Shown: positions 40,544-51,848 of the stretch, piece after piece | How positions within the stretch are numbered: the first letter of the stretch is position 1 | How the letters are laid out: every line of letters begins with the position of its first letter | From: Escherichia phage TrudiGerster | Length of the DNA stretch: 64,000 bases | Strand: one strand, 5' to 3' | Sequence record: MZ501108 | The notes under the pieces: model-generated | Databases searched by the model: none | What the model was told of the DNA's origin: nothing | The model's input: the letters and a program-made list of their open reading frames with translations, nothing else | Translations under genes and position numbers: made by a program

Positions 40544-41317
40544 TTATTTTTTCTCCAATAGTTCTTTAATCGACAGGATTTCTATCCCATTCGTTTCGGC
40601 TTTCTTATAAGATGAGGAAGAACGCTTTGATTCATCCTCACAGATGAGGTAGTTTACGTCTTTGGTAACGGACTTCTTAACCGTATATCCTAGACTTTCT
40701 AAGTAGTTTGTTGCATCCGTTCTATTTGCAAAATCTTGCAAAGAACCGGTAATACATACCACGATTCCGTTCGGTTGAGCAACTAAATCATCGATAAAGA
40801 TGATATCAGCTTTTGTGCCCCGAATACCAGAACTAAATTTCCATGGTAGTTCGATAACATCCTTGCCTTGTGGGGAATTTAGCCAGGCTTTATAATTTTC
40901 TCCAGCTTTGCCGTCAGCCTTAACATCATTAAAACTAATGCAACCCTGGGATAGCTTTTTAGCAGCAACCTCTCCAATCAGAGGGATTCCTAAAGAACCG
41001 AGAACTGAACCAAAGTCAATGTCTCCGCGAACCTTAGTATTTAACTCGCTAATTAACTTAGCGGCAACCTTACTTCCCACAGCTCCGACCAAATCTTCTT
41101 CGGTCAGGTAAAACAGTTCTGAGATCTTAGTCAGTTCCAGCTTTTCAATTGTTTTCGGGCCAAAGCCCTTTAACTTCATCTTTGTGCAGAAGTTCTCAAT
41201 TAACTTACTTGACTGAGCTGGACAGTTGGACTTATTCCGACAGAATAATTGTCCGTTGACAAGATCTAGCTTAGAACCACAAGAGGGACATTGTGTTGGA
41301 ATTTCGATTTTCATCAA
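40544..41317 (-). CDS. NAD-dependent DNA ligase, C-terminal part (Zn finger, HhH, BRCT)
   Basis: 257 aa; CPSCGSKLDLVNGQLFCRNKSNCPAQ zinc finger, HhH region GFGPKTIEKL, C-terminal BRCT-like IVVCITGSL...YLICED. Confidence 0.78.
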   Translation of the reverse strand: MMKIEIPTQCPSCGSKLDLVNGQLFCRNKSNCPAQSSKLIENFCTKMKLKGFGPKTIEKLELTKISELFYLTEEDLVGAVGSKVAAKLISELNTKVRGDIDFGSVLGSLGIPLIGEVAAKKLSQGCISFNDVKADGKAGENYKAWLNSPQGKDVIELPWKFSSGIRGTKADIIFIDDLVAQPNGIVVCITGSLQDFANRTDATNYLESLGYTVKKSVTKDVNYLICEDESKRSSSSYKKAETNGIEILSIKELLEKK

Positions 41318-41520: not shown

Positions 41521-42492
41521 TTAATCTACTCGCTCTACAATACATGGGATTACACCACCAGCACGAATCACTCGAATCTGGCAACCGATCTCTAAATCGA
41601 GAGCGTTAATGTAATCAACGTTATTGAGAGTTGCTTTAATAATCTTGGCATCGTCAATAATTACCGGTTCGAAATATCCAACAGGAGTTACTTTACCAGA
41701 AGCCCCTACCTGCCACTCAACTTTGAGAAGAGTTGTAATTTCGCCTTCTTCATCTTGTTTAATTGCATAAGCACCACGAGGATGTTTATTTGTCCAACCT
41801 TCACGGAAGAATTTGTTGTTGTCATTAATACGAACAACTTTACCATCCATTGGATACCAGTTGAAGTAGTTTTTAATATTCAGTACAGTGATGAAATCTT
41901 CGTTAGCTAACCAAGACATATCATCTAAGTAAGAGCCTGTAATACCTACAGAATCTTCGGAACACTGAATACCATAAGCTACAAAGATCAATCCACCTTC
42001 CGCAATACGTTCGATGAAGTCATCTTCTTCTTTTAAGTTAATAGCACCAGAAGCGTAGTTACGTTTGTTTTCTACTTCTTTAGTGATAAGAACTTCACCA
42101 GTGATTTGAGTTGGTACTTTCTGAGAAATCTTTTTCGGAATGTTCAGCAATCTAACGTTGCTTGTGACATCATTTCCTAGAATACCATTACCACGAGTTA
42201 ACGCTTGAACAAACGTTCCGTCGATATACAACAGAGAAATTGCGCAACCGTCTAGCTTATCAGTTTCTACATCATCAAGAGTAGTGAATGGAGCTTTATC
42301 ACCCCGATCGAAGTAAACTTTCTGCAAAGAATACATACGATACAGATGTGGGATATCACCTTTCGGACCGATGGCATCTTCCGCTGTTGGGAAACGTTTA
42401 AGCAGACGATCATACTCAGCATCAGAGATAATACTATAACCCTGATAATACGCTTCTTGACAACGTTGGATAAACTCTTTTACATTATTCAT
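41521..42492 (-). CDS. NAD-dependent DNA ligase, N-terminal adenylation part
   Basis: KxDG adenylation motif (DKLDGCAISL) and NAD-ligase-like N-terminus; likely start MNNVKEF, whose ATG overlaps the stop of the upstream small ORF. Confidence 0.78.
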   Translation of the reverse strand: MNNVKEFIQRCQEAYYQGYSIISDAEYDRLLKRFPTAEDAIGPKGDIPHLYRMYSLQKVYFDRGDKAPFTTLDDVETDKLDGCAISLLYIDGTFVQALTRGNGILGNDVTSNVRLLNIPKKISQKVPTQITGEVLITKEVENKRNYASGAINLKEEDDFIERIAEGGLIFVAYGIQCSEDSVGITGSYLDDMSWLANEDFITVLNIKNYFNWYPMDGKVVRINDNNKFFREGWTNKHPRGAYAIKQDEEGEITTLLKVEWQVGASGKVTPVGYFEPVIIDDAKIIKATLNNVDYINALDLEIGCQIRVIRAGGVIPCIVERVD

Positions 42493-42685
42493 CGTCGGCG
42501 ATTTCCATCTTGAGTTCTTTATTATACTGCGCAACCATACCAGCTAAATCAGCAGATTCTTTCAGAAACGCATCTCTGTACGCTTTTTGATTTACTGTGC
42601 CGATACTATCTTGATATTTAATGCGAGCCATTGAAAGCAAATTAAGTTTTGCTTGAATTTTGGGAAGTGTTACTGTCATTGCCAT
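42485..42685 (-). CDS. hypothetical small protein
   Basis: 66 aa from ATG MAMTVTLPK after GAGAGGA RBS; translationally coupled to ligase gene. Confidence 0.4.
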   Translation of the reverse strand: MAMTVTLPKIQAKLNLLSMARIKYQDSIGTVNQKAYRDAFLKESADLAGMVAQYNKELKMEIADDE

Positions 42686-45218: not shown

Positions 45219-47991
45219 TTCTAGCTCCCAGTTCTGCCAAAGCCTCTTCATGCATCTGACGTTCTTCATCAGTCATGAACTTAACTGGAATCGGCATACA
45301 CTCGATCTTACAGTAAGTTCTGTACCAGTCCACAATCTTTTCTGTATCCAAATCCTTTCCGATACCCATCATTCCCAAGTACATACGAGCATACTTTGGG
45401 TTTGCACTCTGACCTGTTTTAAGGAAGAAATCTTTCTTCTTACCTTTCAGAGCTTCGATAAATGGTTTGATTGTGACATTTGAACACTTCTTAATATCTT
45501 CCCAGAACATCTCGTGCATCTTATGGAAGAATGCAGCCCGATCGTTTGGTTTATCCTTGATATACTGTTCAACATGTTCAACTGTTACATCTTTAATAGA
45601 ATCAAGATGATAGTAACGAACTAGCAGAAGTTTTGCTTCATAAGCATCAGCATGACGTGGTGCACAATAATCAGGAGTTGAGTGCAGGATAGCTTTAATT
45701 CGCTCTTCTGTGTACTCTTTGTTTGCACCTTCGATAGTCCCCCAGCTTTCACTGAAGATATCAATAGTCGCACCCTGATCAAGCAGATAATAGCGTAGAG
45801 TACTAGTATAATTCCTAGACTCCAGCTCACGACGACGTGCATAAAGTTGCTGTGCTAACTCAATCCAACCTTCGTCAATATTATACTGCTCGGAACCCGC
45901 AGAAAATCCACTTGTAGACTTATCAATAAAGTAATAGATATTCTGAGCACCACGGTCGCGCCTGATTGCTTGAAAACGCATGTTTGGCGCTTGGTTACTG
46001 GTTCGAGTAATAACGAATACGTTATCGAAATAGTTAAAGTCAACCCCACTCGTTACAGAGGGACTACATAATAAACAATCAATCTGCTGATCAATTAGCT
46101 CATTAGTTGTGTAATCCAGAATACGACGAATATCCACATCTGATGTGGAATTTGAGTGAATTTCTTTAACTAACGCACCAGTATTACGACGTAACGCCAT
46201 ACCTTTTTCGTTCAGTTCATCCGGACCACAGTCAGATACTAGGATAGATTTCTCACCCATCTCTAGAGATGTTTGTAAGGCAACCCAAATGCTGGATTCA
46301 TCAGGGAACTCATAAGCATGAGCTTTTGCCAGCATTTTACGGTGATGATTATAGAACGCTACCGGTTTATCAAAGTCGATCAGAGAGCCATAGGCTTCAA
46401 TCGTTTCAGCACTAATATCACCATCAGACAGAATAACTGTTTTAGCTGTCATGAGAATATCACGAAGAACCTGAATACATTCACGACGGTTCTTAACAAC
46501 TGGAGCAAACAACAGGTCATTCATTACCGCGTCACATTCATCGATAAAGATTGTATCAATCTGACCAACAAAACTCTTGAATTTATGGATTGAGTGAATC
46601 GTAGTTGACATACGATCAATCGCACCACGCTTGAAGTTCAGCATATCTACAGACTTATCATACTGACCAGCACTAAATTTCTTTGCGTTTGAAGATACCA
46701 GAGCACGAGTGTTTGTTACCGCGATGAAATTCCCAGGAAGAACGCCAGCATCCAGCCACTTCGTTACCGCCGTAGTTTTACCTGTACCAAGACTTGCCTT
46801 AACAAATGTTAGGTGATCTTTTGGAGGTACAATGTTAATCTTCAGATATGGGACTTCCGCTGGAGAATCCGTATTTAACTGTTTTAGAGGAACACCTTTC
46901 AAGTTTTGTGGAATATCTCTACGACTATTGTTAACAAACGCTTTTAACGCCTGTTTACGACCGTTATTGAAGTAATCCTGAATATTACGACTATTATCTT
47001 TAGTTGCAATGTATTCAGACAAGGCAGGTTTAATCTCACGTTCTAACCACGCAAAATCAACACCATCCTCTAACGCTCGGTGATATAGTTTTGGAATAAT
47101 ACGCAGGTACACTCCATCCTCAGCTTCTTCTAATTCGCTGATGGTTTCCTCTACTTTTTCAGAAGCAGCCTTCTTACCTTTGATTTGATCGAGTAAAGAG
47201 TAGAACTCTTCTTTGAACTCACCCCTAGTTGTTTCATAGTCAACTAGGTTGTTTGGCAGATTTACTTTCGAACCCTTAACATACACAAGGCGTGGCTTAT
47301 TCTCCGCTTTAAACGGATCAACTATACCATCGCTAAATAAAGGGTCGGCAAAATAGTGAAGCTGTACAGAAGAATAATAAGCTAAGTCAGCAATATCAAA
47401 ACCATACTTTTGCTTACTACTATCGTTGATAGACGTAAATAAGAACTTTAACTGTCCCTGCGTCACCTTAACATTAGATTCCAGCATTAAGTGCATTCGG
47501 ATACCTGATTTTAATCCAGCCGAAGACGATGCATGAGCAATAAACCCTGCATCAAGAGGAAACATATCCTCACTAATACTATGTAACATCTTAATGATAT
47601 GACGTGCCATGCCAACAAGATTAAACTTGTCGTAACCACCAGTATCCTGAATACCATCCACGTCCATTGCAATAATGTGACTAGGATTAGAAACGTTAAA
47701 GTTTCCACGAGTACGACGGACATTATCCTTTGGAGCCAAACATTTACCACGAATAGCCACAATATGAGGATCTTGGGTTAGCCTACGCATAATAGGCAGC
47801 ATTTCAGCAAGGCTTTGCGGGTCAAGCTCTTCAAGTACATCAAATTTGAAGGGCATGGAAGCTGGTTTACCTTCCGGATGCTCTTTCGAGAATCGCTTAG
47901 CAAAGGTGTAATCTTCCACTTTAATTTCTTTCCAGATGCCTGTTGCTTTATCTCTGGAAAATCCTGCATGACCTTGTAGGATTGAGAACAC
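45202..47991 (-). CDS. putative replication initiator / origin-binding P-loop ATPase
   Basis: about 929 aa; Walker A SLGTGKTTA and Walker B-like IFIDECD in central region; likely GTG start after AGGAG (track ORF extends to 48057). Confidence 0.65.
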   Translation of the reverse strand: MFSILQGHAGFSRDKATGIWKEIKVEDYTFAKRFSKEHPEGKPASMPFKFDVLEELDPQSLAEMLPIMRRLTQDPHIVAIRGKCLAPKDNVRRTRGNFNVSNPSHIIAMDVDGIQDTGGYDKFNLVGMARHIIKMLHSISEDMFPLDAGFIAHASSSAGLKSGIRMHLMLESNVKVTQGQLKFLFTSINDSSKQKYGFDIADLAYYSSVQLHYFADPLFSDGIVDPFKAENKPRLVYVKGSKVNLPNNLVDYETTRGEFKEEFYSLLDQIKGKKAASEKVEETISELEEAEDGVYLRIIPKLYHRALEDGVDFAWLEREIKPALSEYIATKDNSRNIQDYFNNGRKQALKAFVNNSRRDIPQNLKGVPLKQLNTDSPAEVPYLKINIVPPKDHLTFVKASLGTGKTTAVTKWLDAGVLPGNFIAVTNTRALVSSNAKKFSAGQYDKSVDMLNFKRGAIDRMSTTIHSIHKFKSFVGQIDTIFIDECDAVMNDLLFAPVVKNRRECIQVLRDILMTAKTVILSDGDISAETIEAYGSLIDFDKPVAFYNHHRKMLAKAHAYEFPDESSIWVALQTSLEMGEKSILVSDCGPDELNEKGMALRRNTGALVKEIHSNSTSDVDIRRILDYTTNELIDQQIDCLLCSPSVTSGVDFNYFDNVFVITRTSNQAPNMRFQAIRRDRGAQNIYYFIDKSTSGFSAGSEQYNIDEGWIELAQQLYARRRELESRNYTSTLRYYLLDQGATIDIFSESWGTIEGANKEYTEERIKAILHSTPDYCAPRHADAYEAKLLLVRYYHLDSIKDVTVEHVEQYIKDKPNDRAAFFHKMHEMFWEDIKKCSNVTIKPFIEALKGKKKDFFLKTGQSANPKYARMYLGMMGIGKDLDTEKIVDWYRTYCKIECMPIPVKFMTDEERQMHEEALAELGARNDSEE

Positions 47992-48557
47992 AACAATACT
48001 CCTATGCTGGTTATTCGAATACTTTTCTTTAGGACTATTCAAAAAAGAATAGAACAACTATTACTAACGTCAACACAAATATTAATCATCATCAAGCAGT
48101 ATGGATAAGTTACCATACCTCAGTGCTGTGCTCTCTATACTCATATCCAGAATAGAAATTAGGTCTATCGGCCGCTAAGCCATTTCTATTTGTCCTCACT
48201 ATCCTATTGGTAGGTGACTACTGGACGTGTTACCATTCGCAGCTCTTTTCGTTCGCACCCCCATAAAAGCCTCTCCCTATCTAACGAAGCTAATATGCAC
48301 GGTTTGGATTTACCTTTCCGAATTCAGGGTACACAGATCACTTAATTGACAACCAACTAATATCGTATAAACATTAGTAATAGTTAAAACAACCTTTAAT
48401 GGGGCAGCCGAACTGTTCCGTATTGCGGATTGTAAACAAGAAAAATTAGTAAAATCAATTTTTACTAATGTCTCTCAATTCAATATAAATATTATATCAA
48501 CTTTTGGAGCATCCTGCAAGTAAAATTTTCCCGACGGTGCTATCAGTGGCCTTGAGT

Positions 48558-48587
48558 ACGGAGAAAACCGAGCCAAAGTGACTCGGT
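48558..48587 (-). terminator. rho-independent terminator after the paralog pair
   Basis: minus-strand hairpin accgag-tcactttgg-ctcggt followed by tttctcc. Confidence 0.55.
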
Positions 48588-48610
48588 AATCAGGATTGTG
48601 CTAAGGAAAA

Positions 48611-49018
48611 TCAATCATCATTTAGACCTGGAACATAGATTCCAATACGGTTTAATTGATGTTTGGCTTCTTCGAGAATATCTGGAGTGTACTCCCAAAT
48701 ATCATCTTCCACAAATAACAAATAAGGGGACTCACCTGTTTCGGGGTCACGTGTAATGGCGTAACCGCGTGGGTGGAACAGGGAGAAGTTTAGGGCAACA
48801 ATAAGACCCATACGAGATAGCTCATTCCAGTGCATCTCAAAATCTACAGGAACATCATTTTGATCTCTACTGGTAACAAAGATTCCTAGACAAGGATCTG
48901 TCGGGTCAGTAAAGGGGAAAGTTACACTAACCTTTTCAACCCCCAACCAACGTGCAAGGAGCCCTTCAGCCCGCTCCACTAAACTAGGATCAATAAGACG
49001 CCAAGATACTTGTTCCAT
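48611..49018 (-). CDS. hypothetical protein, paralog B
   Basis: 135 aa; shares W.EL..MGL(I/V).ALN..LF.P ... W.Y.P(E/D) ... G..(V/I)PGL with the adjacent ORF. Confidence 0.5.
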   Translation of the reverse strand: MEQVSWRLIDPSLVERAEGLLARWLGVEKVSVTFPFTDPTDPCLGIFVTSRDQNDVPVDFEMHWNELSRMGLIVALNFSLFHPRGYAITRDPETGESPYLLFVEDDIWEYTPDILEEAKHQLNRIGIYVPGLNDD

Positions 49019-49028
49019 TCTGCCTCCT

Positions 49029-49457
49029 TTAAGCAGTTAAACCAGGGATCTGATAGCCGAAATGACGCAGCTTCTGGATACCCTCATTTATTTCTTCGGG
49101 CGAATAATGCCAGCCCTCACGTTCATTTACCTGGAAAGCCGGAGCCTCCCCATTACGATAGTTTACTATCAAACGATGTTTAATAGGCATGAACAGTTTG
49201 TAGTTCAATGCAAAAACCAATCCCATGTAGTCCAGTTCTTTCCAGTCTACAATCTCTTCTACCCCATCTTCCAACATTACACTGATACCAATGCAGCTAG
49301 CTTCATCAGAGTCTGAAGTAAACGCGAAAGCAATCTCATTATTCTCACACCAAATCTTGAGAGTATTAATGGCTTCCTCAAACAGATTATCCGGCAGAGA
49401 ACGCCAGAAGTTGATAAGAAGTGGATTGATATTGGTTTCAAATAGGTTATTAAACAT
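49029..49457 (-). CDS. hypothetical protein, paralog A
   Basis: 142 aa; paralogous to 48611-49018. Confidence 0.5.
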   Translation of the reverse strand: MFNNLFETNINPLLINFWRSLPDNLFEEAINTLKIWCENNEIAFAFTSDSDEASCIGISVMLEDGVEEIVDWKELDYMGLVFALNYKLFMPIKHRLIVNYRNGEAPAFQVNEREGWHYSPEEINEGIQKLRHFGYQIPGLTA

Positions 49458-49459
49458 AG

Positions 49460-49999
49460 CTATACCTTTAAGTTTTGAAGGGCTTTACACATTGCAAGAT
49501 CAGGACTAAACTCCAGCATATAGCTGATAGCATTCAGATCCTGCATATTTATTCCAGTTCTACCATTGACAATAACTGTTGGATACTGGTACATCATAGC
49601 TCCAGCATCATCTAGGACACACCAGTGCTTGAGTTTGTACTTTTCCACAAACCGAAGAACAGAATTGCCTCTAGATAATCCACCACCAGTAAAATCAGTA
49701 GTACCAAGAAAACGATCAACCAGACCTAACGCGGTCATGATCTCAACATTCTCCACCTCGTTACGTACTGTAAACCATGATGAAACCCCAACAATCATTA
49801 TACCGGATGGTTTTAAGAAGTTCTGGAAAGCCTGTAGTAAAGGTTTGAAAACCCAGTCTCCACCAAAGAAGATCTTCTCTTCATCTGGAGCATGGTGGTG
49901 AGAGATGCTCGAATTGAGCACCCCATCAATATCCAGAAAAATAATTGGAGTATTACTTAGATCCACCGGATTTGTCCCATTGCAGAGTTTTAGCTTCAT
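49460..49999 (-). CDS. HAD-superfamily phosphatase (nucleotidase-like)
   Basis: 179 aa; HAD motif I IIFLDIDGVLN near N-terminus. Confidence 0.6.
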   Translation of the reverse strand: MKLKLCNGTNPVDLSNTPIIFLDIDGVLNSSISHHHAPDEEKIFFGGDWVFKPLLQAFQNFLKPSGIMIVGVSSWFTVRNEVENVEIMTALGLVDRFLGTTDFTGGGLSRGNSVLRFVEKYKLKHWCVLDDAGAMMYQYPTVIVNGRTGINMQDLNAISYMLEFSPDLAMCKALQNLKV

Positions 50000-50138
50000 C
50001 GGAGAAAGGAATATGGTAGTCTACCTTACCCTTACCAAACATAGCCGCCAAAAATACAGTATAGATAGTAATCATACCAATCAGGTTTACAGTCCACACC
50101 AATACTTTCCAGATACCCTTAAAAATCTTCTTCACCAT
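49953..50138 (-). CDS. small membrane protein
   Basis: 61 aa with one hydrophobic helix (WKVLVWTVNLIGMITIYTVFLAAMF); overlaps HAD gene start in another frame. Confidence 0.35.
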   Translation of the reverse strand: MVKKIFKGIWKVLVWTVNLIGMITIYTVFLAAMFGKGKVDYHIPFSDEAKTLQWDKSGGSK

Positions 50139-50301
50139 ATTCTTCCTCCTTAATCAGGAATTCTTTCCATTCTGCTGTATCCTCATAGATAACGCAGAAA
50201 TCATCACTCTTGCACGAGAAATCATCAGTAGCATATTCAAAACGGTAGCACCAACTACCATCTGGCCATACTAAAAGATCACACATGCTTTTGCGGTGCA
50301 T
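50119..50301 (-). CDS. small acidic Cys-containing protein
   Basis: 60 aa ORF overlapping neighbours at both ends; four Cys. Confidence 0.3.
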   Translation of the reverse strand: MHRKSMCDLLVWPDGSWCYRFEYATDDFSCKSDDFCVIYEDTAEWKEFLIKEEEYGEEDF

Positions 50302-51055
50302 AAATAGTTCCTTCCATAAAAGCCCCTACTTGGCCAATAAAGTGTTTGTTACCAAAAACTTCGGCAGCCCCAGCACGCCATACAGTAACACCACGTTTCT
50401 CATACAAGGACTGTTCTAAGTAGTTGATAGTTGGGTTAACAACCATCATCTTAGTACCCCGTGCCACCGCAGGAAATAGTTCCCAGTTGAAGTTGATAAC
50501 TTGGTTACTGCACCCAACCACGATAACCATATCATTAGCCGTAAGACTATCGAAAGTAGCGTTCATCAAAGCGTATTCAGGGGCTACTTCACCGAAGAAT
50601 ACAACGTTAGGCTTAGCCCAATAAAACTCATCAGGATCTATGGCAGTATAACCCACATCTAGGATATACTCTTTTCGATCTGGCAATTCCTTAATACGAA
50701 CTTCTGGTAAATAACCATGAACGTGTAGAACTTCACTTTTTGGCACACCAGCCCTTTCCAGTAGATCATCCACGTTAGTAGTGATGTTCAGTACAGTCTC
50801 TGGATATCGTTGGAACCACTCCCCAATGCGGAGATGCGCAATGTTAGGTTCAACAGTCTGCAATTCCTGACGACGCTTGTTGTAGAACTCGTGGGTTTTC
50901 CAGTAGAACTGTCCACGGAAAGCATGAATATCACATACTTCTTCCAGATCGTATTCATCCCACATTGCCTTGCCACTAGCAGTATCTGTACGGAATGCAC
51001 GGATACCACTATCAACACTTAAACCTGCACCACTAACAATAATTAGTCTACGCAT
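50279..51055 (-). CDS. Sir2-family (sirtuin-like) protein lacking the zinc ribbon
   Basis: 258 aa; GAGLSVDSGIRAFR, TTNVDDLLERAG, LHVHGYL match sirtuin NAD-binding/catalytic motifs; no CxxC pairs. Confidence 0.7.
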   Translation of the reverse strand: MRRLIIVSGAGLSVDSGIRAFRTDTASGKAMWDEYDLEEVCDIHAFRGQFYWKTHEFYNKRRQELQTVEPNIAHLRIGEWFQRYPETVLNITTNVDDLLERAGVPKSEVLHVHGYLPEVRIKELPDRKEYILDVGYTAIDPDEFYWAKPNVVFFGEVAPEYALMNATFDSLTANDMVIVVGCSNQVINFNWELFPAVARGTKMMVVNPTINYLEQSLYEKRGVTVWRAGAAEVFGNKHFIGQVGAFMEGTIYAPQKHV

Positions 51056-51290
51056 TTTTCACCTGCTCTCGGAAATTTTGACCAATACTATCTAATAGCT
51101 CAGCTAATTCTTTATTACCTTTTTCTACTAAGGTATTAGCAATAACTTCCAGCATAGTAGCACAAGATTCAACACCATCTTTGTAACCAGTTTCCCAGTG
51201 TTTCATTAAAACACCCTGAAACTCTTCATTGAGCTTGTTTAGGTCAATGAGGCTAACATTTTCACTTGGTAGCTTCTGACTCGAGAATGC
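51048..51290 (-). CDS. hypothetical protein
   Basis: 81 aa from ATG MAFSSQK after GGAGGA RBS (track ORF extends to 51425). Confidence 0.4.
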   Translation of the reverse strand, partial: AFSSQKLPSENVSLIDLNKLNEEFQGVLMKHWETGYKDGVESCATMLEVIANTLVEKGNKELAELLDSIGQNFREQVKNA

Positions 51291-51465
51291 CATACAGTTT
51301 GTCCTCCAGTTCCATAATACGATTTTCATAGGAAGCACGCAGCTTCTCGATGGATAAAGCACGAACCGTAACCTCATCTGAGTTAATCGCCAGTTGAGCG
51401 AGGTCTTCCGTTTCCATGCGGCCATTGTAAATTAAGCGATATTTAAGATGTTTTACGTTTTTCAT
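51262..51465 (-). CDS. hypothetical protein
   Basis: 67 aa ORF, overlaps downstream gene start by about 28 nt. Confidence 0.4.
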   Translation of the reverse strand: MKNVKHLKYRLIYNGRMETEDLAQLAINSDEVTVRALSIEKLRASYENRIMELEDKLYGILESEATK

Positions 51466-51474
51466 TCTTCTTCC

Positions 51475-51756
51475 TTAGTTCTGTACTGTAAATGCGTTTT
51501 TATCGGCATGAGCATTATAAGGATCATTCATGCGATAGATTTTCACAGCTTTAGTAGACCCTTTTGATTCTTCATAATCAATCCAGAGCCACTTGTCTTT
51601 GCCTACATAATGTACCCGAAATTTCTTAACTTTCTTATCGTTCCACGTTGCTACAACTCTACGATAATCAAAGCCACCTAACCAATCAAGAGCCTTACGT
51701 TCTTCACTAGGCTCTCCCAAATGTGAAACGTCCACTTTAGGAAGCAATTCGCTCAT
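51475..51756 (-). CDS. hypothetical protein
   Basis: 93 aa ORF, first gene after promoter at 51785-51813. Confidence 0.45.
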   Translation of the reverse strand: MSELLPKVDVSHLGEPSEERKALDWLGGFDYRRVVATWNDKKVKKFRVHYVGKDKWLWIDYEESKGSTKAVKIYRMNDPYNAHADKNAFTVQN

Positions 51757-51784
51757 AGCTTTCTCCTCTCAAATTTATAAATCT

Positions 51785-51813
51785 ATTATACACAAATTTT
51801 TAGCTGAAAGCAA
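51785..51813 (-). promoter_or_regulatory. early promoter driving the Sir2/HAD operon
   Basis: minus strand TTGCTT - 17 nt - TATAAT followed by AGATTTATAAATTTGAGAGGAG. Confidence 0.6.
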
Positions 51814-51848
51814 ATAAAATAAAAGCCAGGTCGACTAGCAACCTGGCT
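51812..51848 (-). terminator. rho-independent terminator after nrdD
   Basis: minus-strand hairpin agccaggt-tgctagtcg-acctggct followed by tttattttattt. Confidence 0.7.

What the first reader, a model, noticed from the sequence alone, without database searches (positions are those of the whole stretch)
48611..51813. Early operon combining a zinc-less Sir2-like protein, a HAD phosphatase, two paralogous unknowns and several small ORFs
One promoter (51785-51813) precedes nine tightly packed, partly overlapping minus-strand ORFs that end at a terminator near 48560-48590. The Sir2-like protein has the sirtuin NAD-binding/catalytic motifs but no zinc-ribbon cysteines, the same reduced architecture as the NAD-cleaving SIR2 domains of bacterial defence systems. 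The HAD phosphatase, small membrane protein and duplicated 135/142 aa proteins beside it have no assignable role. This is the most plausible place in the window for an uncharacterised NAD/nucleotide-directed host-takeover or counter-defence module, but that is inference.
Basis: partly seen in the sequence, partly recalled or inferred. Interest (0 to 1): 0.6.

Follow-up and report, generated by a model that had tools for sequence, protein, structure and literature searches.

The report
Phage T5 early sirtuin–phosphatase operon
This is the well-conserved early gene cluster T5.100–T5.107 of T5-like phages. It holds a zinc-less relative of the bacterial CobB sirtuin next to a small phosphatase, a pair already predicted but never shown to repair cut RNA. 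It is real, but not a new kind of system.

Summary
A strong σ70 promoter (51813–51785) is followed by nine packed minus-strand ORFs and a hairpin terminator (about 48587–48561). The window is a T5-like phage, and the cluster is the equivalent of T5.100–T5.107.

The sirtuin lacks all zinc cysteines, as do its 120 closest relatives. By sequence and predicted fold it sits with E. coli CobB and SIRT5 (class III), keeping the catalytic His and the YxxR acyl pocket. It matches no defence-type SIR2 model, so the suggested likeness to NAD-cleaving defence SIR2 domains is not supported.

The HAD protein belongs to PF18143 (HAD_SAK_2, the 'Swiss-army-knife' RNA-repair HAD). The two paralogues are DUF7415 proteins with a confident but unmatched fold.

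Iyer et al. 2022 already described this sirtuin–HAD neighbourhood and predicted NAD-dependent RNA-end repair. I confirmed that orthologous sirtuins in other phage families sit in operons with RNA ligase, cREC, kinase and phosphoesterase genes.

The operon is not one machine. HAD is missing in some T5-likes, phage DT57C has deleted Sir2 through HAD, and DUF7415 recurs beside nrdD/nrdG elsewhere. No biochemistry exists for any of these proteins.

Just outside the finding I noticed a conserved, covarying structured RNA of about 330 nt in the next gene's leader, with no Rfam match.

The parts
51785..51813 (-). σ70 early promoter: TTGCTT, 17-nt spacer, TATAAT
   Evidence: Read directly from the sequence. 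It is 47/53 identical to T5 P-N25 and near-identical to the promoter annotated before T5.100.
51475..51756 (-). ORF1, 93 aa, unknown function (phrog_7953)
   Evidence: RBS GAGGAG. It is present at 81-93% identity in about half of the T5-like loci, and T5 itself carries a different first gene.
51262..51465 (-). ORF2, 67 aa, unknown function (phrog_5236)
   Evidence: It is 86-94% identical in nearly all E. coli/Salmonella T5-like loci.
51048..51293 (-). ORF3, 81 aa, unknown function (phrog_5827). It overlaps ORF2 by 32 nt and Sir2 by 8 nt.
   Evidence: The PHROG match covers residues 50-125 of the 125-aa reading. The RBS GGAGGA precedes the 81-aa start only. AKM_ECS annotates an 81-aa gene here. 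The gene is present in only a subset of relatives.
50279..51055 (-). Zinc-less class III (CobB/SIRT5-like) sirtuin, 258 aa
   Evidence: PF02146, E 2e-23. Best PDB sequence hit is CobB at 5e-19. AF2 pLDDT 90.6, with CobB as the top fold match. Invariant residues include GAG, S16, G17, F21, R22, Y58, R61, N94, D96, H113 and the F153-F154/E156 (FGE) motif. No zinc cysteines in it or its relatives. No PADLOC hit.
50119..50301 (-). ORF5, 60 aa, acidic small protein with a WPDGSWC motif (phrog_5116). It overlaps the 3' end of Sir2 by 23 nt.
   Evidence: It follows Sir2 in most T5-like loci, including the Klebsiella ones, at 45-91% identity.
49953..50138 (-). ORF6, 61 aa, with a single hydrophobic helix (phrog_11166)
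   Evidence: strong RBS AAGGAGG. tblastn finds it in only 9 of the 60 loci examined.
49460..49999 (-). Standalone HAD phosphatase of the HAD_SAK_2 family. It is 179 aa from the ATG at 49999, or 168 aa from the GTG at 49966 as annotated in relatives.
   Evidence: PF18143, E 9e-19, covering 1-138 of 139 profile positions. HAD motifs are invariant against distant homologues: DIDGVLN, SSW, R, LDD. It is 85-88% identical across T5-likes.
49029..49457 (-). DUF7415 paralogue A, 142 aa (equivalent of T5.106)
   Evidence: PF24187, E 2e-30; paralogous to the 135-aa protein.
48611..49018 (-). DUF7415 paralogue B, 135 aa (equivalent of T5.107)
48561..48587 (-). Intrinsic terminator closing the operon
   Evidence: Hairpin plus T-run read. 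Invariant in the alignment with T5, IrmaTschudi and AKM_ECS. Annotated as a terminator in T5 and AKM_ECS.

Best explanation
This is the T5.100-T5.107 early transcription unit of a T5-like phage (Markadamsvirinae). A P-N25-type σ70 promoter drives it and an intrinsic terminator closes it. It is a bundle of accessory genes, not one machine.

Its conserved core is a zinc-less class III (CobB/SIRT5-type) sirtuin plus a standalone 'Swiss-army-knife' HAD phosphatase. The most likely job of this pair is healing of nucleic-acid ends, chiefly RNA, after cleavage by host or competitor RNases.

The proposed steps, all inferred:
1. The sirtuin uses NAD+ to take a 2'-phosphate, or another terminal phosphate, off cleaved RNA. 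This would be KptA/Tpt1-like chemistry on a sirtuin scaffold, with the YxxR anion pocket holding the phosphate.
2. The HAD hydrolyses terminal 3'/2'-phosphates or the ADP-ribose-phosphate by-product.
3. Sealing is left to a ligase encoded elsewhere or by the host.

The two DUF7415 paralogues and the five small ORFs are separate accessory genes. DUF7415 looks like a small adaptor domain that recurs with deoxynucleotide-metabolism enzymes, above all NrdD/NrdG.

What is shown: the anatomy, the family assignments, the clade placement and the gene-neighbourhood associations. What is inferred: every biochemical step.
For: Operon anatomy and homology with T5.

Sirtuin placement in the CobB/SIRT5 clade with intact catalytic residues.

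HAD is a full-length HAD_SAK_2 member with invariant catalytic motifs.

The same zinc-less sirtuin clade (41-71% identical; loci with the ligase set 41-66%) is linked to RNA-end enzymes in other phage lineages:
- Vequintavirus JeffSchatz has an operon of Rnl1-type RNA ligase (PF09511), cREC_REC (PF20274) and sirtuin. A P-loop kinase and a calcineurin-like phosphoesterase lie divergently, with tRNA genes nearby.
- Klebsiella phage Iguana has phosphoesterase, RNA ligase, kinase, Sir2, DNA ligase and MazG.
- Jumbo phage CBB has a short 'RNA ligase', Sir2, Nudix and PIN-PhoH.
- In 60 IMG/VR loci, about 13 carry the ligase/kinase/phosphoesterase set and about 35 carry the HAD + DUF7415 + NrdD set.

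Iyer et al. 2022 reached the same reading and named the SP15 (T5-like) sirtuin+HAD neighbourhood (PMC9503650 section 3.7.3). The standalone SAK HAD is described as an RNA 3'-phosphatase family in PMC7824862.

Modularity:
- HAD is absent from Klebsiella T5-likes that keep Sir2.
- DT57C has deleted Sir2 through HAD but keeps both DUF7415 genes.
- DUF7415 genes lie between nrdD and nrdG in Jiaodavirus and Gualtarvirus.
- DUF7415 is fused to thymidylate kinase and to dATP/dGTP pyrophosphohydrolase.
Against: - No RNA ligase, polynucleotide kinase, cREC or 2H gene occurs in the T5-type neighbourhood or anywhere in this 64-kb window. A repair pathway would therefore be incomplete without host enzymes.
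- Every residue that marks a protein deacylase is retained (catalytic His, FGE, YxxR, a small residue at the SIRT5 A86 position). Nothing in the sequence demands a nucleic-acid substrate.
- Sir2 and HAD are not strictly co-inherited.
- In one distant phage, Aeromonas PX29, the HAD homologue sits beside td (thymidylate synthase) as well as rnlA, so the context there is ambiguous.
- No sirtuin has ever been shown to act on RNA phosphate. I found no experimental paper on this clade.
Confidence: 0.4

Rival explanations
1. The sirtuin is simply a phage copy of the host CobB. It would be an NAD-dependent protein-lysine deacylase (deacetylase or desuccinylase), or a protein ADP-ribosyltransferase, that resets the acylation state of host or phage proteins early in infection. 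On this reading the HAD and the other genes are unrelated neighbours.
For: - Closest solved relatives by sequence and fold are E. coli CobB, Sir2-Af and SIRT5.
- NCBIfam hits are all CobB/deacylase models.
- The clade has an invariant catalytic H113, the FGE motif, and the class III Y58/R61 pair with C41 at the SIRT5 A86/CobB A76 position. Together these form the succinyl/malonyl-lysine pocket.
- Sir2 occurs without HAD in several lineages.
Against: - The zinc ligands are lost across the whole clade. This reshapes the small domain that helps form the peptide cleft.
- Scores fall far below the CobB equivalog cut-offs (108.7 against 243; 91.9 against 320).
- The clade is repeatedly linked to RNA ligase, cREC, kinase, phosphoesterase, Nudix or HAD genes in at least three phage lineages. 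It is never linked to acyl-protein pathways.
- The host already supplies CobB.
Confidence: 0.3
2. One reading: the zinc-less sirtuin is an NAD+-cleaving enzyme like ThsA, DSR or SIR2-HerA. It would act in host takeover, superinfection exclusion or counter-defence.
For: It lacks the zinc cysteines, as defence SIR2 domains do. It is expressed early from a very strong promoter.
Against: - No match to SIR2_2 (PF13289) or to any PADLOC model.
- None of the top 50 structural matches is a defence SIR2.
- It is a bare 258-aa domain with no sensor or partner domain.
- The acyl pocket and catalytic His are conserved as in deacylases.
- The phage's own DNA ligase is NAD-dependent (window 41521-42534 and 40544-41317; T5.116/117). 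Unregulated NAD+ destruction would therefore harm replication.
Confidence: 0.07
3. The 3' half of the operon (HAD plus the two DUF7415 proteins), and possibly the sirtuin too, serves nucleotide or NAD-metabolite metabolism rather than polynucleotides. The HAD would be a mononucleotide, NMN or ADP-ribose-phosphate phosphatase. DUF7415 would be an accessory or regulator of anaerobic ribonucleotide reductase or the dNTP-synthesis complex.
For: - The operon lies directly downstream of nrdD, in the nucleotide-metabolism part of the early region.
- DUF7415 genes sit between nrdD and nrdG in two Straboviridae genera, and next to NudE in Slopekvirus.
- DUF7415 is fused to thymidylate kinase and to dATP/dGTP pyrophosphohydrolase.
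- The Aeromonas PX29 HAD homologue lies between td and nrdA.1.
- NAMPT lies near Sir2 in Iguana and CBB.
Against: - The HAD matches the RNA-repair SAK family specifically, not the nucleotidase HAD families.
- DUF7415 also fuses to ASCH/DUF3850 and other unrelated domains, so it may be a generic adaptor.
- Adjacency in densely packed phage early regions is weak evidence.
Confidence: 0.15

Closest known systems
Bacteriophage T5 genes T5.100-T5.107 (NC_005859, 55708-58976)
   Same: Same position between nrdD and the origin-binding helicase gene. Same promoter and terminator sequences. Same order: Sir2, two small ORFs, HAD, then two DUF7415 genes. HAD is 87% identical, DUF7415 65-71% and Sir2 59%.
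   Different: The 5' small ORFs differ. T5 has 126- and 77-aa genes, whereas this window has 93-, 67- and 81-aa genes. The Sir2 allele here is closer to those of phages MSP1 and Ob_P (91-97%) and to Mydovirus-like sirtuins (about 65%) than to the T5 allele.
Predicted phage sirtuin-centred NAD-dependent RNA-repair systems, type 3 ('Escherichia phage SP15' neighbourhood; Iyer, Burroughs, Anantharaman & Aravind 2022, PMC9503650)
   Same: Same sirtuin clade next to a standalone Swiss-army-knife HAD in a T5-like phage. SP15 also carries the same DUF7415 gene (P0149).
   Different: That paper does not discuss the DUF7415 pair, the small ORFs, the loss of zinc ligands or the class III pocket. Its functional claim is computational only.
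E. coli CobB and human SIRT5 (class III sirtuins)
   Same: Rossmann fold with a small domain. Shared motifs: GAGxS, TxNxD, the catalytic His, FGE and the YxxR anion-binding pocket. Top sequence and fold matches.
   Different: All four zinc cysteines are absent. Identity is about 25%, and scores fall below the CobB equivalog cut-offs. The protein is phage-encoded and sits in nucleic-acid-repair-type neighbourhoods.
Defence-system SIR2 NADases (ThsA, DSR1/2, SIR2-HerA, SIR2-APAZ, KomC; PF13289)
   Same: Sirtuin-superfamily Rossmann domain without a zinc-ribbon cysteine set.
   Different: No HMM or fold affinity. No fused or partnered sensor. The deacylase-type pocket is retained.
KptA/Tpt1 RNA 2'-phosphotransferase
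   Same: The proposed chemistry only: NAD+-dependent removal of an RNA 2'-phosphate through an ADP-ribosylated intermediate, in RNA-ligase contexts.
   Different: KptA/Tpt1 has an unrelated ADP-ribosyltransferase fold, and there is no sequence match. For the sirtuin this activity is a hypothesis.
T4 Pnkp phosphatase domain and Swiss-army-knife HAD RNA 3'-phosphatases
   Same: HAD catalytic motifs are present, the protein belongs to PF18143, and it is phage-encoded.
   Different: It is standalone, with no kinase domain or ligase partner in the T5-type neighbourhood. No solved relative is detectable by sequence.

Membership tests
Sirtuin / SIR2 family (PF02146) | HMM match above the gathering score, with the Rossmann NAD-binding motifs (GAGxS, TxNxD) | tested here: met
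   83.5 bits against a cut-off of 24, covering profile positions 1-178 of 180. G9, A10, G11, S16, G17, T92, T93, N94, V95 and D96 are invariant in 40 homologues.
Sirtuin / SIR2 family (PF02146) | Catalytic histidine (HG motif) | tested here: met
   H113 and G114 are invariant and align to the catalytic H147 of CobB.
Sirtuin / SIR2 family (PF02146) | Cys4 zinc-binding module in the small domain | tested here: not met
   No Cys between residues 113 and 150 in the query, and no conserved Cys set in the 120 closest homologues. The β-ribbon itself is still predicted, at pLDDT about 95.
Class III sirtuins (CobB/SIRT5) | YxxR anion-binding pair plus a small residue at the SIRT5 A86 position | tested here: met
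   Y58 and R61 are invariant, and C41 aligns with CobB A76.
Class III sirtuins (CobB/SIRT5) | Score above the curated CobB equivalog cut-offs (NCBIfam) | tested here: not met
   Best scores are 108.7 bits against a cut-off of 243, and 91.9 against 320. It is a divergent relative, not an equivalog.
Class III sirtuins (CobB/SIRT5) | NAD-dependent lysine deacylase activity | not testable with these tools
   This needs an enzyme assay.
Defence-associated SIR2 NADases (PF13289, PADLOC models) | HMM match to SIR2_2 or a defence model | tested here: not met
   PF02146 is the only Pfam hit. There are no PADLOC families at E up to 0.1.
Defence-associated SIR2 NADases (PF13289, PADLOC models) | Structural nearest neighbours are ThsA, DSR or HerA-type SIR2 domains | tested here: not met
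   The top 50 PDB Foldseek hits are CobB, Sir2-Af, SIRT5 and SIRT2.
Defence-associated SIR2 NADases (PF13289, PADLOC models) | Fused or adjacent sensor or partner (SLOG, HerA, APAZ/Ago, etc.) | tested here: not met
   It is a 258-aa single-domain protein, and no neighbour has such a domain.
HAD_SAK_2 (PF18143) | Full-length HMM match above the gathering score | tested here: met
   68.7 bits against a cut-off of 27.5, covering profile positions 1-138 of 139.
HAD_SAK_2 (PF18143) | HAD catalytic motifs I-IV | tested here: met
   DIDGVLN, SSW, R99 and LDD are invariant against homologues of 31-38% identity.
HAD_SAK_2 (PF18143) | Phosphatase activity on RNA termini | not testable with these tools
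   To my knowledge this is predicted only, even for the family as a whole (PMC7824862).
Predicted phage sirtuin RNA-repair system (Iyer et al. 2022) | Sirtuin belongs to the phage-specific clade found beside RNA ligases | tested here: met
   It is 41-66% identical over at least 94% of its length to the sirtuins of Vequintavirus and Mydovirus-like phages that sit in RNA ligase/cREC operons.
Predicted phage sirtuin RNA-repair system (Iyer et al. 2022) | Adjacent RNA-end-processing enzyme | tested here: met
   The SAK HAD lies two small genes downstream in the same operon.
Predicted phage sirtuin RNA-repair system (Iyer et al. 2022) | RNA ligase and 5'-kinase available in the neighbourhood | tested here: not met
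   No homologue occurs within ±8 kb in any T5-type locus, or anywhere in the 64-kb window.
KptA/Tpt1 (PF01885) | ART-fold 2'-phosphotransferase domain | tested here: not met
   None of the nine ORFs gives such a Pfam hit. Any resemblance is functional analogy only.
DUF7415 (PF24187) | HMM match above the gathering score | tested here: met
   105.5 and 93.8 bits against a cut-off of 27. The conserved core WNELSxxGLIxxINxxILHPxGLA…DDGVWEY is shared with 154 cluster representatives.

The most novel reading that the evidence does not exclude
The zinc-less phage sirtuin clade, present in about 1,000 sequenced phages, would be the first sirtuin to act on nucleic acid. It would remove, or ADP-ribosylate, terminal or 2'-phosphates on cleaved RNA or DNA using NAD+, with the class III YxxR 'succinyl' pocket re-used as a phosphate pocket. 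The SAK HAD would finish the end. In T5-like phages this minimal two-enzyme healer would feed host ligases and blunt tRNA- or RNA-cleaving defences. Separately, the DUF7415 pair would be a new accessory of phage anaerobic ribonucleotide reductase.
Probability: 0.25. Interest if true: 0.7.

Novelty: already known. Interest (0 to 1): 0.3.

Why it matters
The cluster itself is ordinary T5 biology. It has been annotated since the T5 genome was published, and it was given a computational interpretation in 2022.

What remains open is the biochemistry. A sirtuin clade found in roughly a thousand phage genomes has lost its zinc site, keeps a deacylase-type anion pocket, and is repeatedly wired to RNA-repair genes. 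Nobody has assayed it. Showing that a sirtuin can process RNA phosphate ends would add a new reaction class to a heavily studied enzyme family. It would also explain one way that T5-like and V5-like phages cope with RNase-based immunity. If the enzyme instead proves to be a plain deacylase, that would show that phages reprogramme host protein acylation.

The work here narrows the options. The enzyme belongs to the CobB clade, not to the defence NADases, and the operon is modular. A natural knock-out, DT57C, already exists.

Tried and rejected
- PADLOC scan of all nine proteins: nothing relevant. The only hit was a sub-threshold PDC-S04 match for one DUF7415 protein.
- NCBIfam: only sub-cut-off CobB hits for the sirtuin, and nothing for the other eight proteins.
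- PDB sequence and profile searches with the HAD: no relatives.
- Search for RNA ligase, PNK, cREC, phosphoesterase, MazG and NrdG homologues in the window: none.
- The three conserved Sir2 neighbours in Justusliebigvirus: no meaningful Pfam assignment (two had no match and one a single sub-threshold DUF5050 hit, 16.6 bits against a cut-off of 27), so that lineage neither supports nor contradicts the RNA-repair link.
- I suspected that the operon promoter was P-N25 itself. It is not. In T5, P-N25 precedes D2 (T5.111), and the operon promoter is a close paralogue.
- I considered the 60-aa Cys-containing ORF as a trans-acting replacement for the zinc ribbon. I rejected this because its Cys spacing (C-x10-C-x11-C-x5-C) is not zinc-ribbon-like and no evidence supports it.
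- I could find no experimental paper on any phage sirtuin of this clade. Burroughs & Aravind 2016 (PMC5062991) is not held in the library.
- A covariance model of the leader RNA was not built, because the element exceeds the size that can be calibrated in the time allowed.

Full report
**What the window is.** The 3.6 kb around the finding matches 492 phage records by megablast. Nearly all are T5-like Demerecviridae (Epseptimavirus or Tequintavirus) of Salmonella, Escherichia and Klebsiella, and the best full-length matches are 85-88% identical. The 135-aa protein is 100% identical to bas27_0047 of Escherichia phage TrudiGerster, so the window is that phage or a very close relative. The layout is late structural genes on the plus strand, early replication genes on the minus strand, then nucleotide-metabolism genes.

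**Checking the observation.**
- It follows the nrdD terminator hairpin at 51848-51824.
- It is 47/53 identical to the classic T5 early promoter P-N25, and almost identical to the promoter annotated before T5.100. 'Early' is therefore justified by homology with the T5 map.
- Nine minus-strand ORFs follow, with overlaps of up to 47 nt or gaps of 2-10 nt.
- The third ORF is 81 aa (51293-51048), not the 125 aa that a mechanical ORF call gives. Only the 81-aa start has an RBS, and the PHROG match covers only that part.
- The HAD may start at the ATG at 49999 or, as annotated in relatives, at the GTG at 49966.
- The operon ends in a 7-bp GC-rich hairpin plus a T-run at about 48587-48561. This hairpin is invariant in T5, IrmaTschudi and AKM_ECS and annotated as a terminator in two records.
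- All nine products belong to PHROG families and are conserved at protein level in other T5-like phages.
- In T5 the same unit is T5.100-T5.107.

**The sirtuin.**
- It matches PF02146 at E 2e-23 over the whole model and has no PADLOC hit.
- Against all PDB sequences the best hits are E. coli CobB (5e-19), Archaeoglobus Sir2-Af1/Af2, SIRT5 and Sir2Tm, followed by SIRT3 and SIRT2.
- An AF2 model built on 40 homologues is confident (pLDDT 90.6). Its top 50 Foldseek matches in the PDB are CobB (TM 0.84-0.87 normalised to CobB), Sir2-Af, SIRT5 and SIRT2. No defence SIR2 appears among them.
- The following are invariant in the clade: G9/A10/G11, S16/G17, F21/R22, N94/D96, the catalytic H113/G114, and F153-F154/E156 (the FGE motif, G155 not quite invariant).
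- Also invariant are Y58 and R61. These align with CobB Y92/R95, equivalent to SIRT5 Y102/R105, the pair that binds the carboxylate of succinyl- and malonyl-lysine. C41 aligns with the small pocket residue CobB A76 (alignment read directly).
- The protein has no cysteine in the zinc-module stretch, and neither do its 120 nearest homologues. The model still shows three β-strands there (114-122, 130-133, 146-151) at pLDDT about 95.
- NCBIfam places it near the CobB models but far below their equivalog cut-offs.
It is a divergent, zinc-less member of the CobB/SIRT5 clade, not of the ThsA/DSR clade.

**The HAD and the paralogues.**
- The 179-aa protein is a full-length member of PF18143, 'HAD domain in Swiss Army Knife RNA repair proteins'.
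- Motifs I-IV are invariant against homologues of 31-38% identity from Straboviridae. No solved relative is detectable by sequence.
- It is the most conserved protein of the operon, at 85-88% identity across T5-likes whose sirtuins are only 59-68% identical.
- The 142- and 135-aa proteins are true paralogues (31-34% identity, E 2e-18), and both are PF24187 DUF7415.
- An exhaustive profile search shows that the C-terminal 55 residues or so form a widespread small module (154 cluster representatives), mostly in proteins of 60-200 aa.
- That module is occasionally fused to dATP/dGTP pyrophosphohydrolase, thymidylate kinase or ASCH/DUF3850.
- In Jiaodavirus and in Morganella phage MP1, a DUF7415 gene sits exactly between nrdD and nrdG. 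In Slopekvirus it sits one gene downstream of NudE. Here the pair ends an operon that starts right after nrdD.
- This is suggestive of a link to deoxynucleotide metabolism, but no more than that.

[quoted passage not shown] They list three conserved neighbourhoods:
1. Jumbo phages, with 2H, Nudix, cREC and PIN.
2. V5/Mydo-type phages, with a T4-like RNA ligase, cREC, a kinase, MazG and a calcineurin-like phosphoesterase.
3. [quoted passage not shown]

They propose that the sirtuin acts like KptA, removing 2'-phosphates from RNA ends. SP15 is a T5-like phage that carries the same DUF7415 gene. I found no experimental study of this clade.

**Independent check of that context.**
- About 1,000 phage records encode a relative of this sirtuin.
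- In Vequintavirus JeffSchatz the orthologue (54% identical) lies in an operon of RNA ligase, cREC_REC and sirtuin. A P-loop kinase and a metallophosphoesterase lie divergently, with five tRNA genes nearby.
- In Klebsiella phage Iguana the orthologue (66% identical) follows a phosphoesterase, an RNA ligase and a kinase, and precedes a DNA ligase and MazG. NAMPT and PRPP synthetase lie a few kb away.
- In jumbo phage CBB it lies between a short 'RNA ligase' and a Nudix protein, close to PIN-PhoH and NAMPT.
- Across 60 IMG/VR loci: about 35 T5-type loci have HAD + DUF7415×2 + NrdD. Three T5-type loci (two of them the Klebsiella-type group) have Sir2 + DUF7415 + NrdD but no HAD. About 13 loci have the ligase/kinase/phosphoesterase set. 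About 10 Justusliebigvirus-type loci have other, unassignable partners.
- The association of this sirtuin clade with nucleic-acid end-processing genes is therefore real and recurrent. The T5 version, however, is the most stripped-down. It has no ligase, kinase or cREC in the neighbourhood or anywhere in this window.

**Is it one module?** No.
- The 5' small ORFs vary between T5-likes, and T5 itself has different first genes.
- HAD is absent where Sir2 is kept.
- Phage DT57C carries a 90-aa 'defective Sir2' remnant that fuses a short Sir2 fragment to the HAD C-terminus. It has lost the two small ORFs in between but keeps both DUF7415 genes. The Sir2-HAD segment is thus dispensable for growth in the laboratory, and DT57C is a ready-made natural knock-out.
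- DUF7415 has a life of its own in T4-like phages.

**Mechanism, and how sure I am.**
- I rate the structural and family conclusions as very likely (about 0.9): a CobB-clade zinc-less sirtuin, a SAK HAD, a DUF7415 pair, and a T5.100-107 equivalent.
- For function I favour the published RNA- or nucleic-acid-end-healing reading of the Sir2+HAD pair, at about 0.35-0.4. The reason is that the same clade is wired to RNA-repair genes in at least three independent phage lineages. In addition, the invariant YxxR anion pocket could as well hold a phosphate as a carboxylate; that last point is my inference.
- The main rival is a conventional protein deacylase or ADP-ribosyltransferase (about 0.3). Every deacylase residue is intact, and the T5 neighbourhood lacks a ligase.
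- A nucleotide- or NAD-metabolite role for HAD and DUF7415 is possible (about 0.15).
- A defence-like NADase is unlikely (about 0.07). There is no family or fold affinity. The phage's own split DNA ligase is also NAD-dependent (window 41521-42534 and 40544-41317).

**Novelty and interest.** The feature is real but already known. It was annotated in T5, is annotated as 'Sir2-like' in hundreds of records, and was interpreted computationally in 2022. A specialist would not be surprised by its presence. The open question is the enzymology of a widespread zinc-less sirtuin clade, which is directly testable.

**Outside the finding.** The 550-nt gap downstream of the operon (48610-47992) caught my eye because it is more conserved than the neighbouring coding DNA.
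- It contains a promoter with an extended -10 element (TTGCAG at 48519-48514, then TGaTATAAT at 48499-48491) and an AT-rich hairpin.
- It also contains a core of about 330 nt (48386-48055) closed by a 10-bp stem, all within the 5' leader of the origin-binding helicase gene. That gene really starts at a GTG near 47991, preceded by an AGGAG RBS.
- Twenty-five T5-like loci give 21 distinct sequences in two allelic forms. The two forms are the same length but only about 62% identical.
- RNAalifold predicts 66 pairs, 20 of them with compensatory double changes.
- On that structure 99.4% of cells are paired. Twenty pairs show double changes, against 14.0±1.6 in shuffles (0/500) and 0-2 in the slid controls. 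The caveat is that the structure was derived from the same alignment, and the two forms behave largely as two lineages.
- Three further divergent variants (L049, L052/L054, L014) fold on their own into the same architecture. Each has a long closing stem of quite different sequence, an apical hairpin around CUUAGCGG, and a GUUGCCACCCC-type hairpin.
- Nothing in Rfam matches, even at E up to 10.
- This looks like an undescribed structured leader RNA of Markadamsvirinae. It may deserve its own follow-up more than the operon does.

Noticed in passing
window 47992-48520 (minus strand); core about 48386-48055; apical motif GGCUUAGCGGCC at 48181-48170: A conserved 5' leader of about 490 nt precedes the origin-binding helicase gene (T5.108 homologue). 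It has its own promoter (TTGCAG at 48519-48514, TGaTATAAT at 48499-48491) and a core of about 330 nt closed by a 10-bp stem. At least five sequence variants in T5-like phages keep the same architecture. There are 20 of 66 pairs with compensatory changes, 99.4% of cells are paired, and no shuffle out of 500 reaches the observed value. There is no Rfam match. It is a candidate new structured cis-regulatory RNA or ncRNA.
   Followed up: partly
window 51757-51830 (minus strand); L006 15044-15118: The operon promoter is a close paralogue of the famous T5 P-N25 promoter. It is 47/53 identical from upstream of the -35 into the transcribed region, including the ATAAATTTGAGAG segment downstream of the -10. 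P-N25 itself precedes D2 in T5.
   Followed up: yes
L070 (Escherichia phage DT57C) 2468-2740: A natural in-frame deletion leaves a 90-aa 'defective Sir2' that joins a Sir2 fragment (about residues 172-207) to the HAD C-terminus (about residues 139-179). It removes most of Sir2, both small ORFs and most of HAD. Both DUF7415 genes are kept. Phage Shivani has a truncated HAD.
   Followed up: partly
L009 3980-4213 (Klebsiella phage 15882-5); L072 2471-2866 (Morganella phage MP1); L071 2492-2749 (KP27): DUF7415 genes sit exactly between nrdD and nrdG in two genera of T4-like phages, and one gene downstream of NudE in Slopekvirus. Elsewhere the domain is fused to thymidylate kinase and to dATP/dGTP pyrophosphohydrolase. 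This may be a link to deoxynucleotide metabolism. No nrdG homologue is present in this window.
   Followed up: partly
window 49460-49999 and 48611-49457; public records of T5-like phages: There is widespread mis-annotation. The HAD gene is labelled 'Sir2 (NAD-dependent deacetylase)' in T5 (T5.105) and many other records, and phrog_18062, which matches only the HAD C-terminal half, carries that name. DUF7415 proteins are variously called 'tail tube protein' or 'exonuclease'. One record puts the Sir2 label on the 60-aa ORF.
   Followed up: no
window 50279-51055 compared with its flanks: The region is a mosaic. The Sir2 allele here is 91-97% identical to those of phages MSP1 and Ob_P, but only 67-68% to other Epseptimavirus alleles and 59% to the T5 allele. 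It is about 65% identical to the sirtuins of the unrelated Mydovirus-like myophages. The adjacent HAD stays at 85-88% in all T5-likes. This suggests allele exchange, or much faster evolution of Sir2.
   Followed up: no
L030, L033, L045, L070 leaders (about 97 nt after the AT hairpin): Some T5-like phages carry an extra insertion of about 97 nt in the leader, between the AT-rich hairpin and the conserved AUACGGAACAGUU.GGCUGCCCC element.
   Followed up: no
L004 1-1130; L074 336-1823: In Mydovirus-like and jumbo phages, a nicotinamide phosphoribosyltransferase gene (with PRPP synthetase beside it in the Mydovirus-like phage) lies within a few kb of the orthologous sirtuin. It could recycle the nicotinamide that the sirtuin releases. 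T5-like phages lack it in this region.
   Followed up: no
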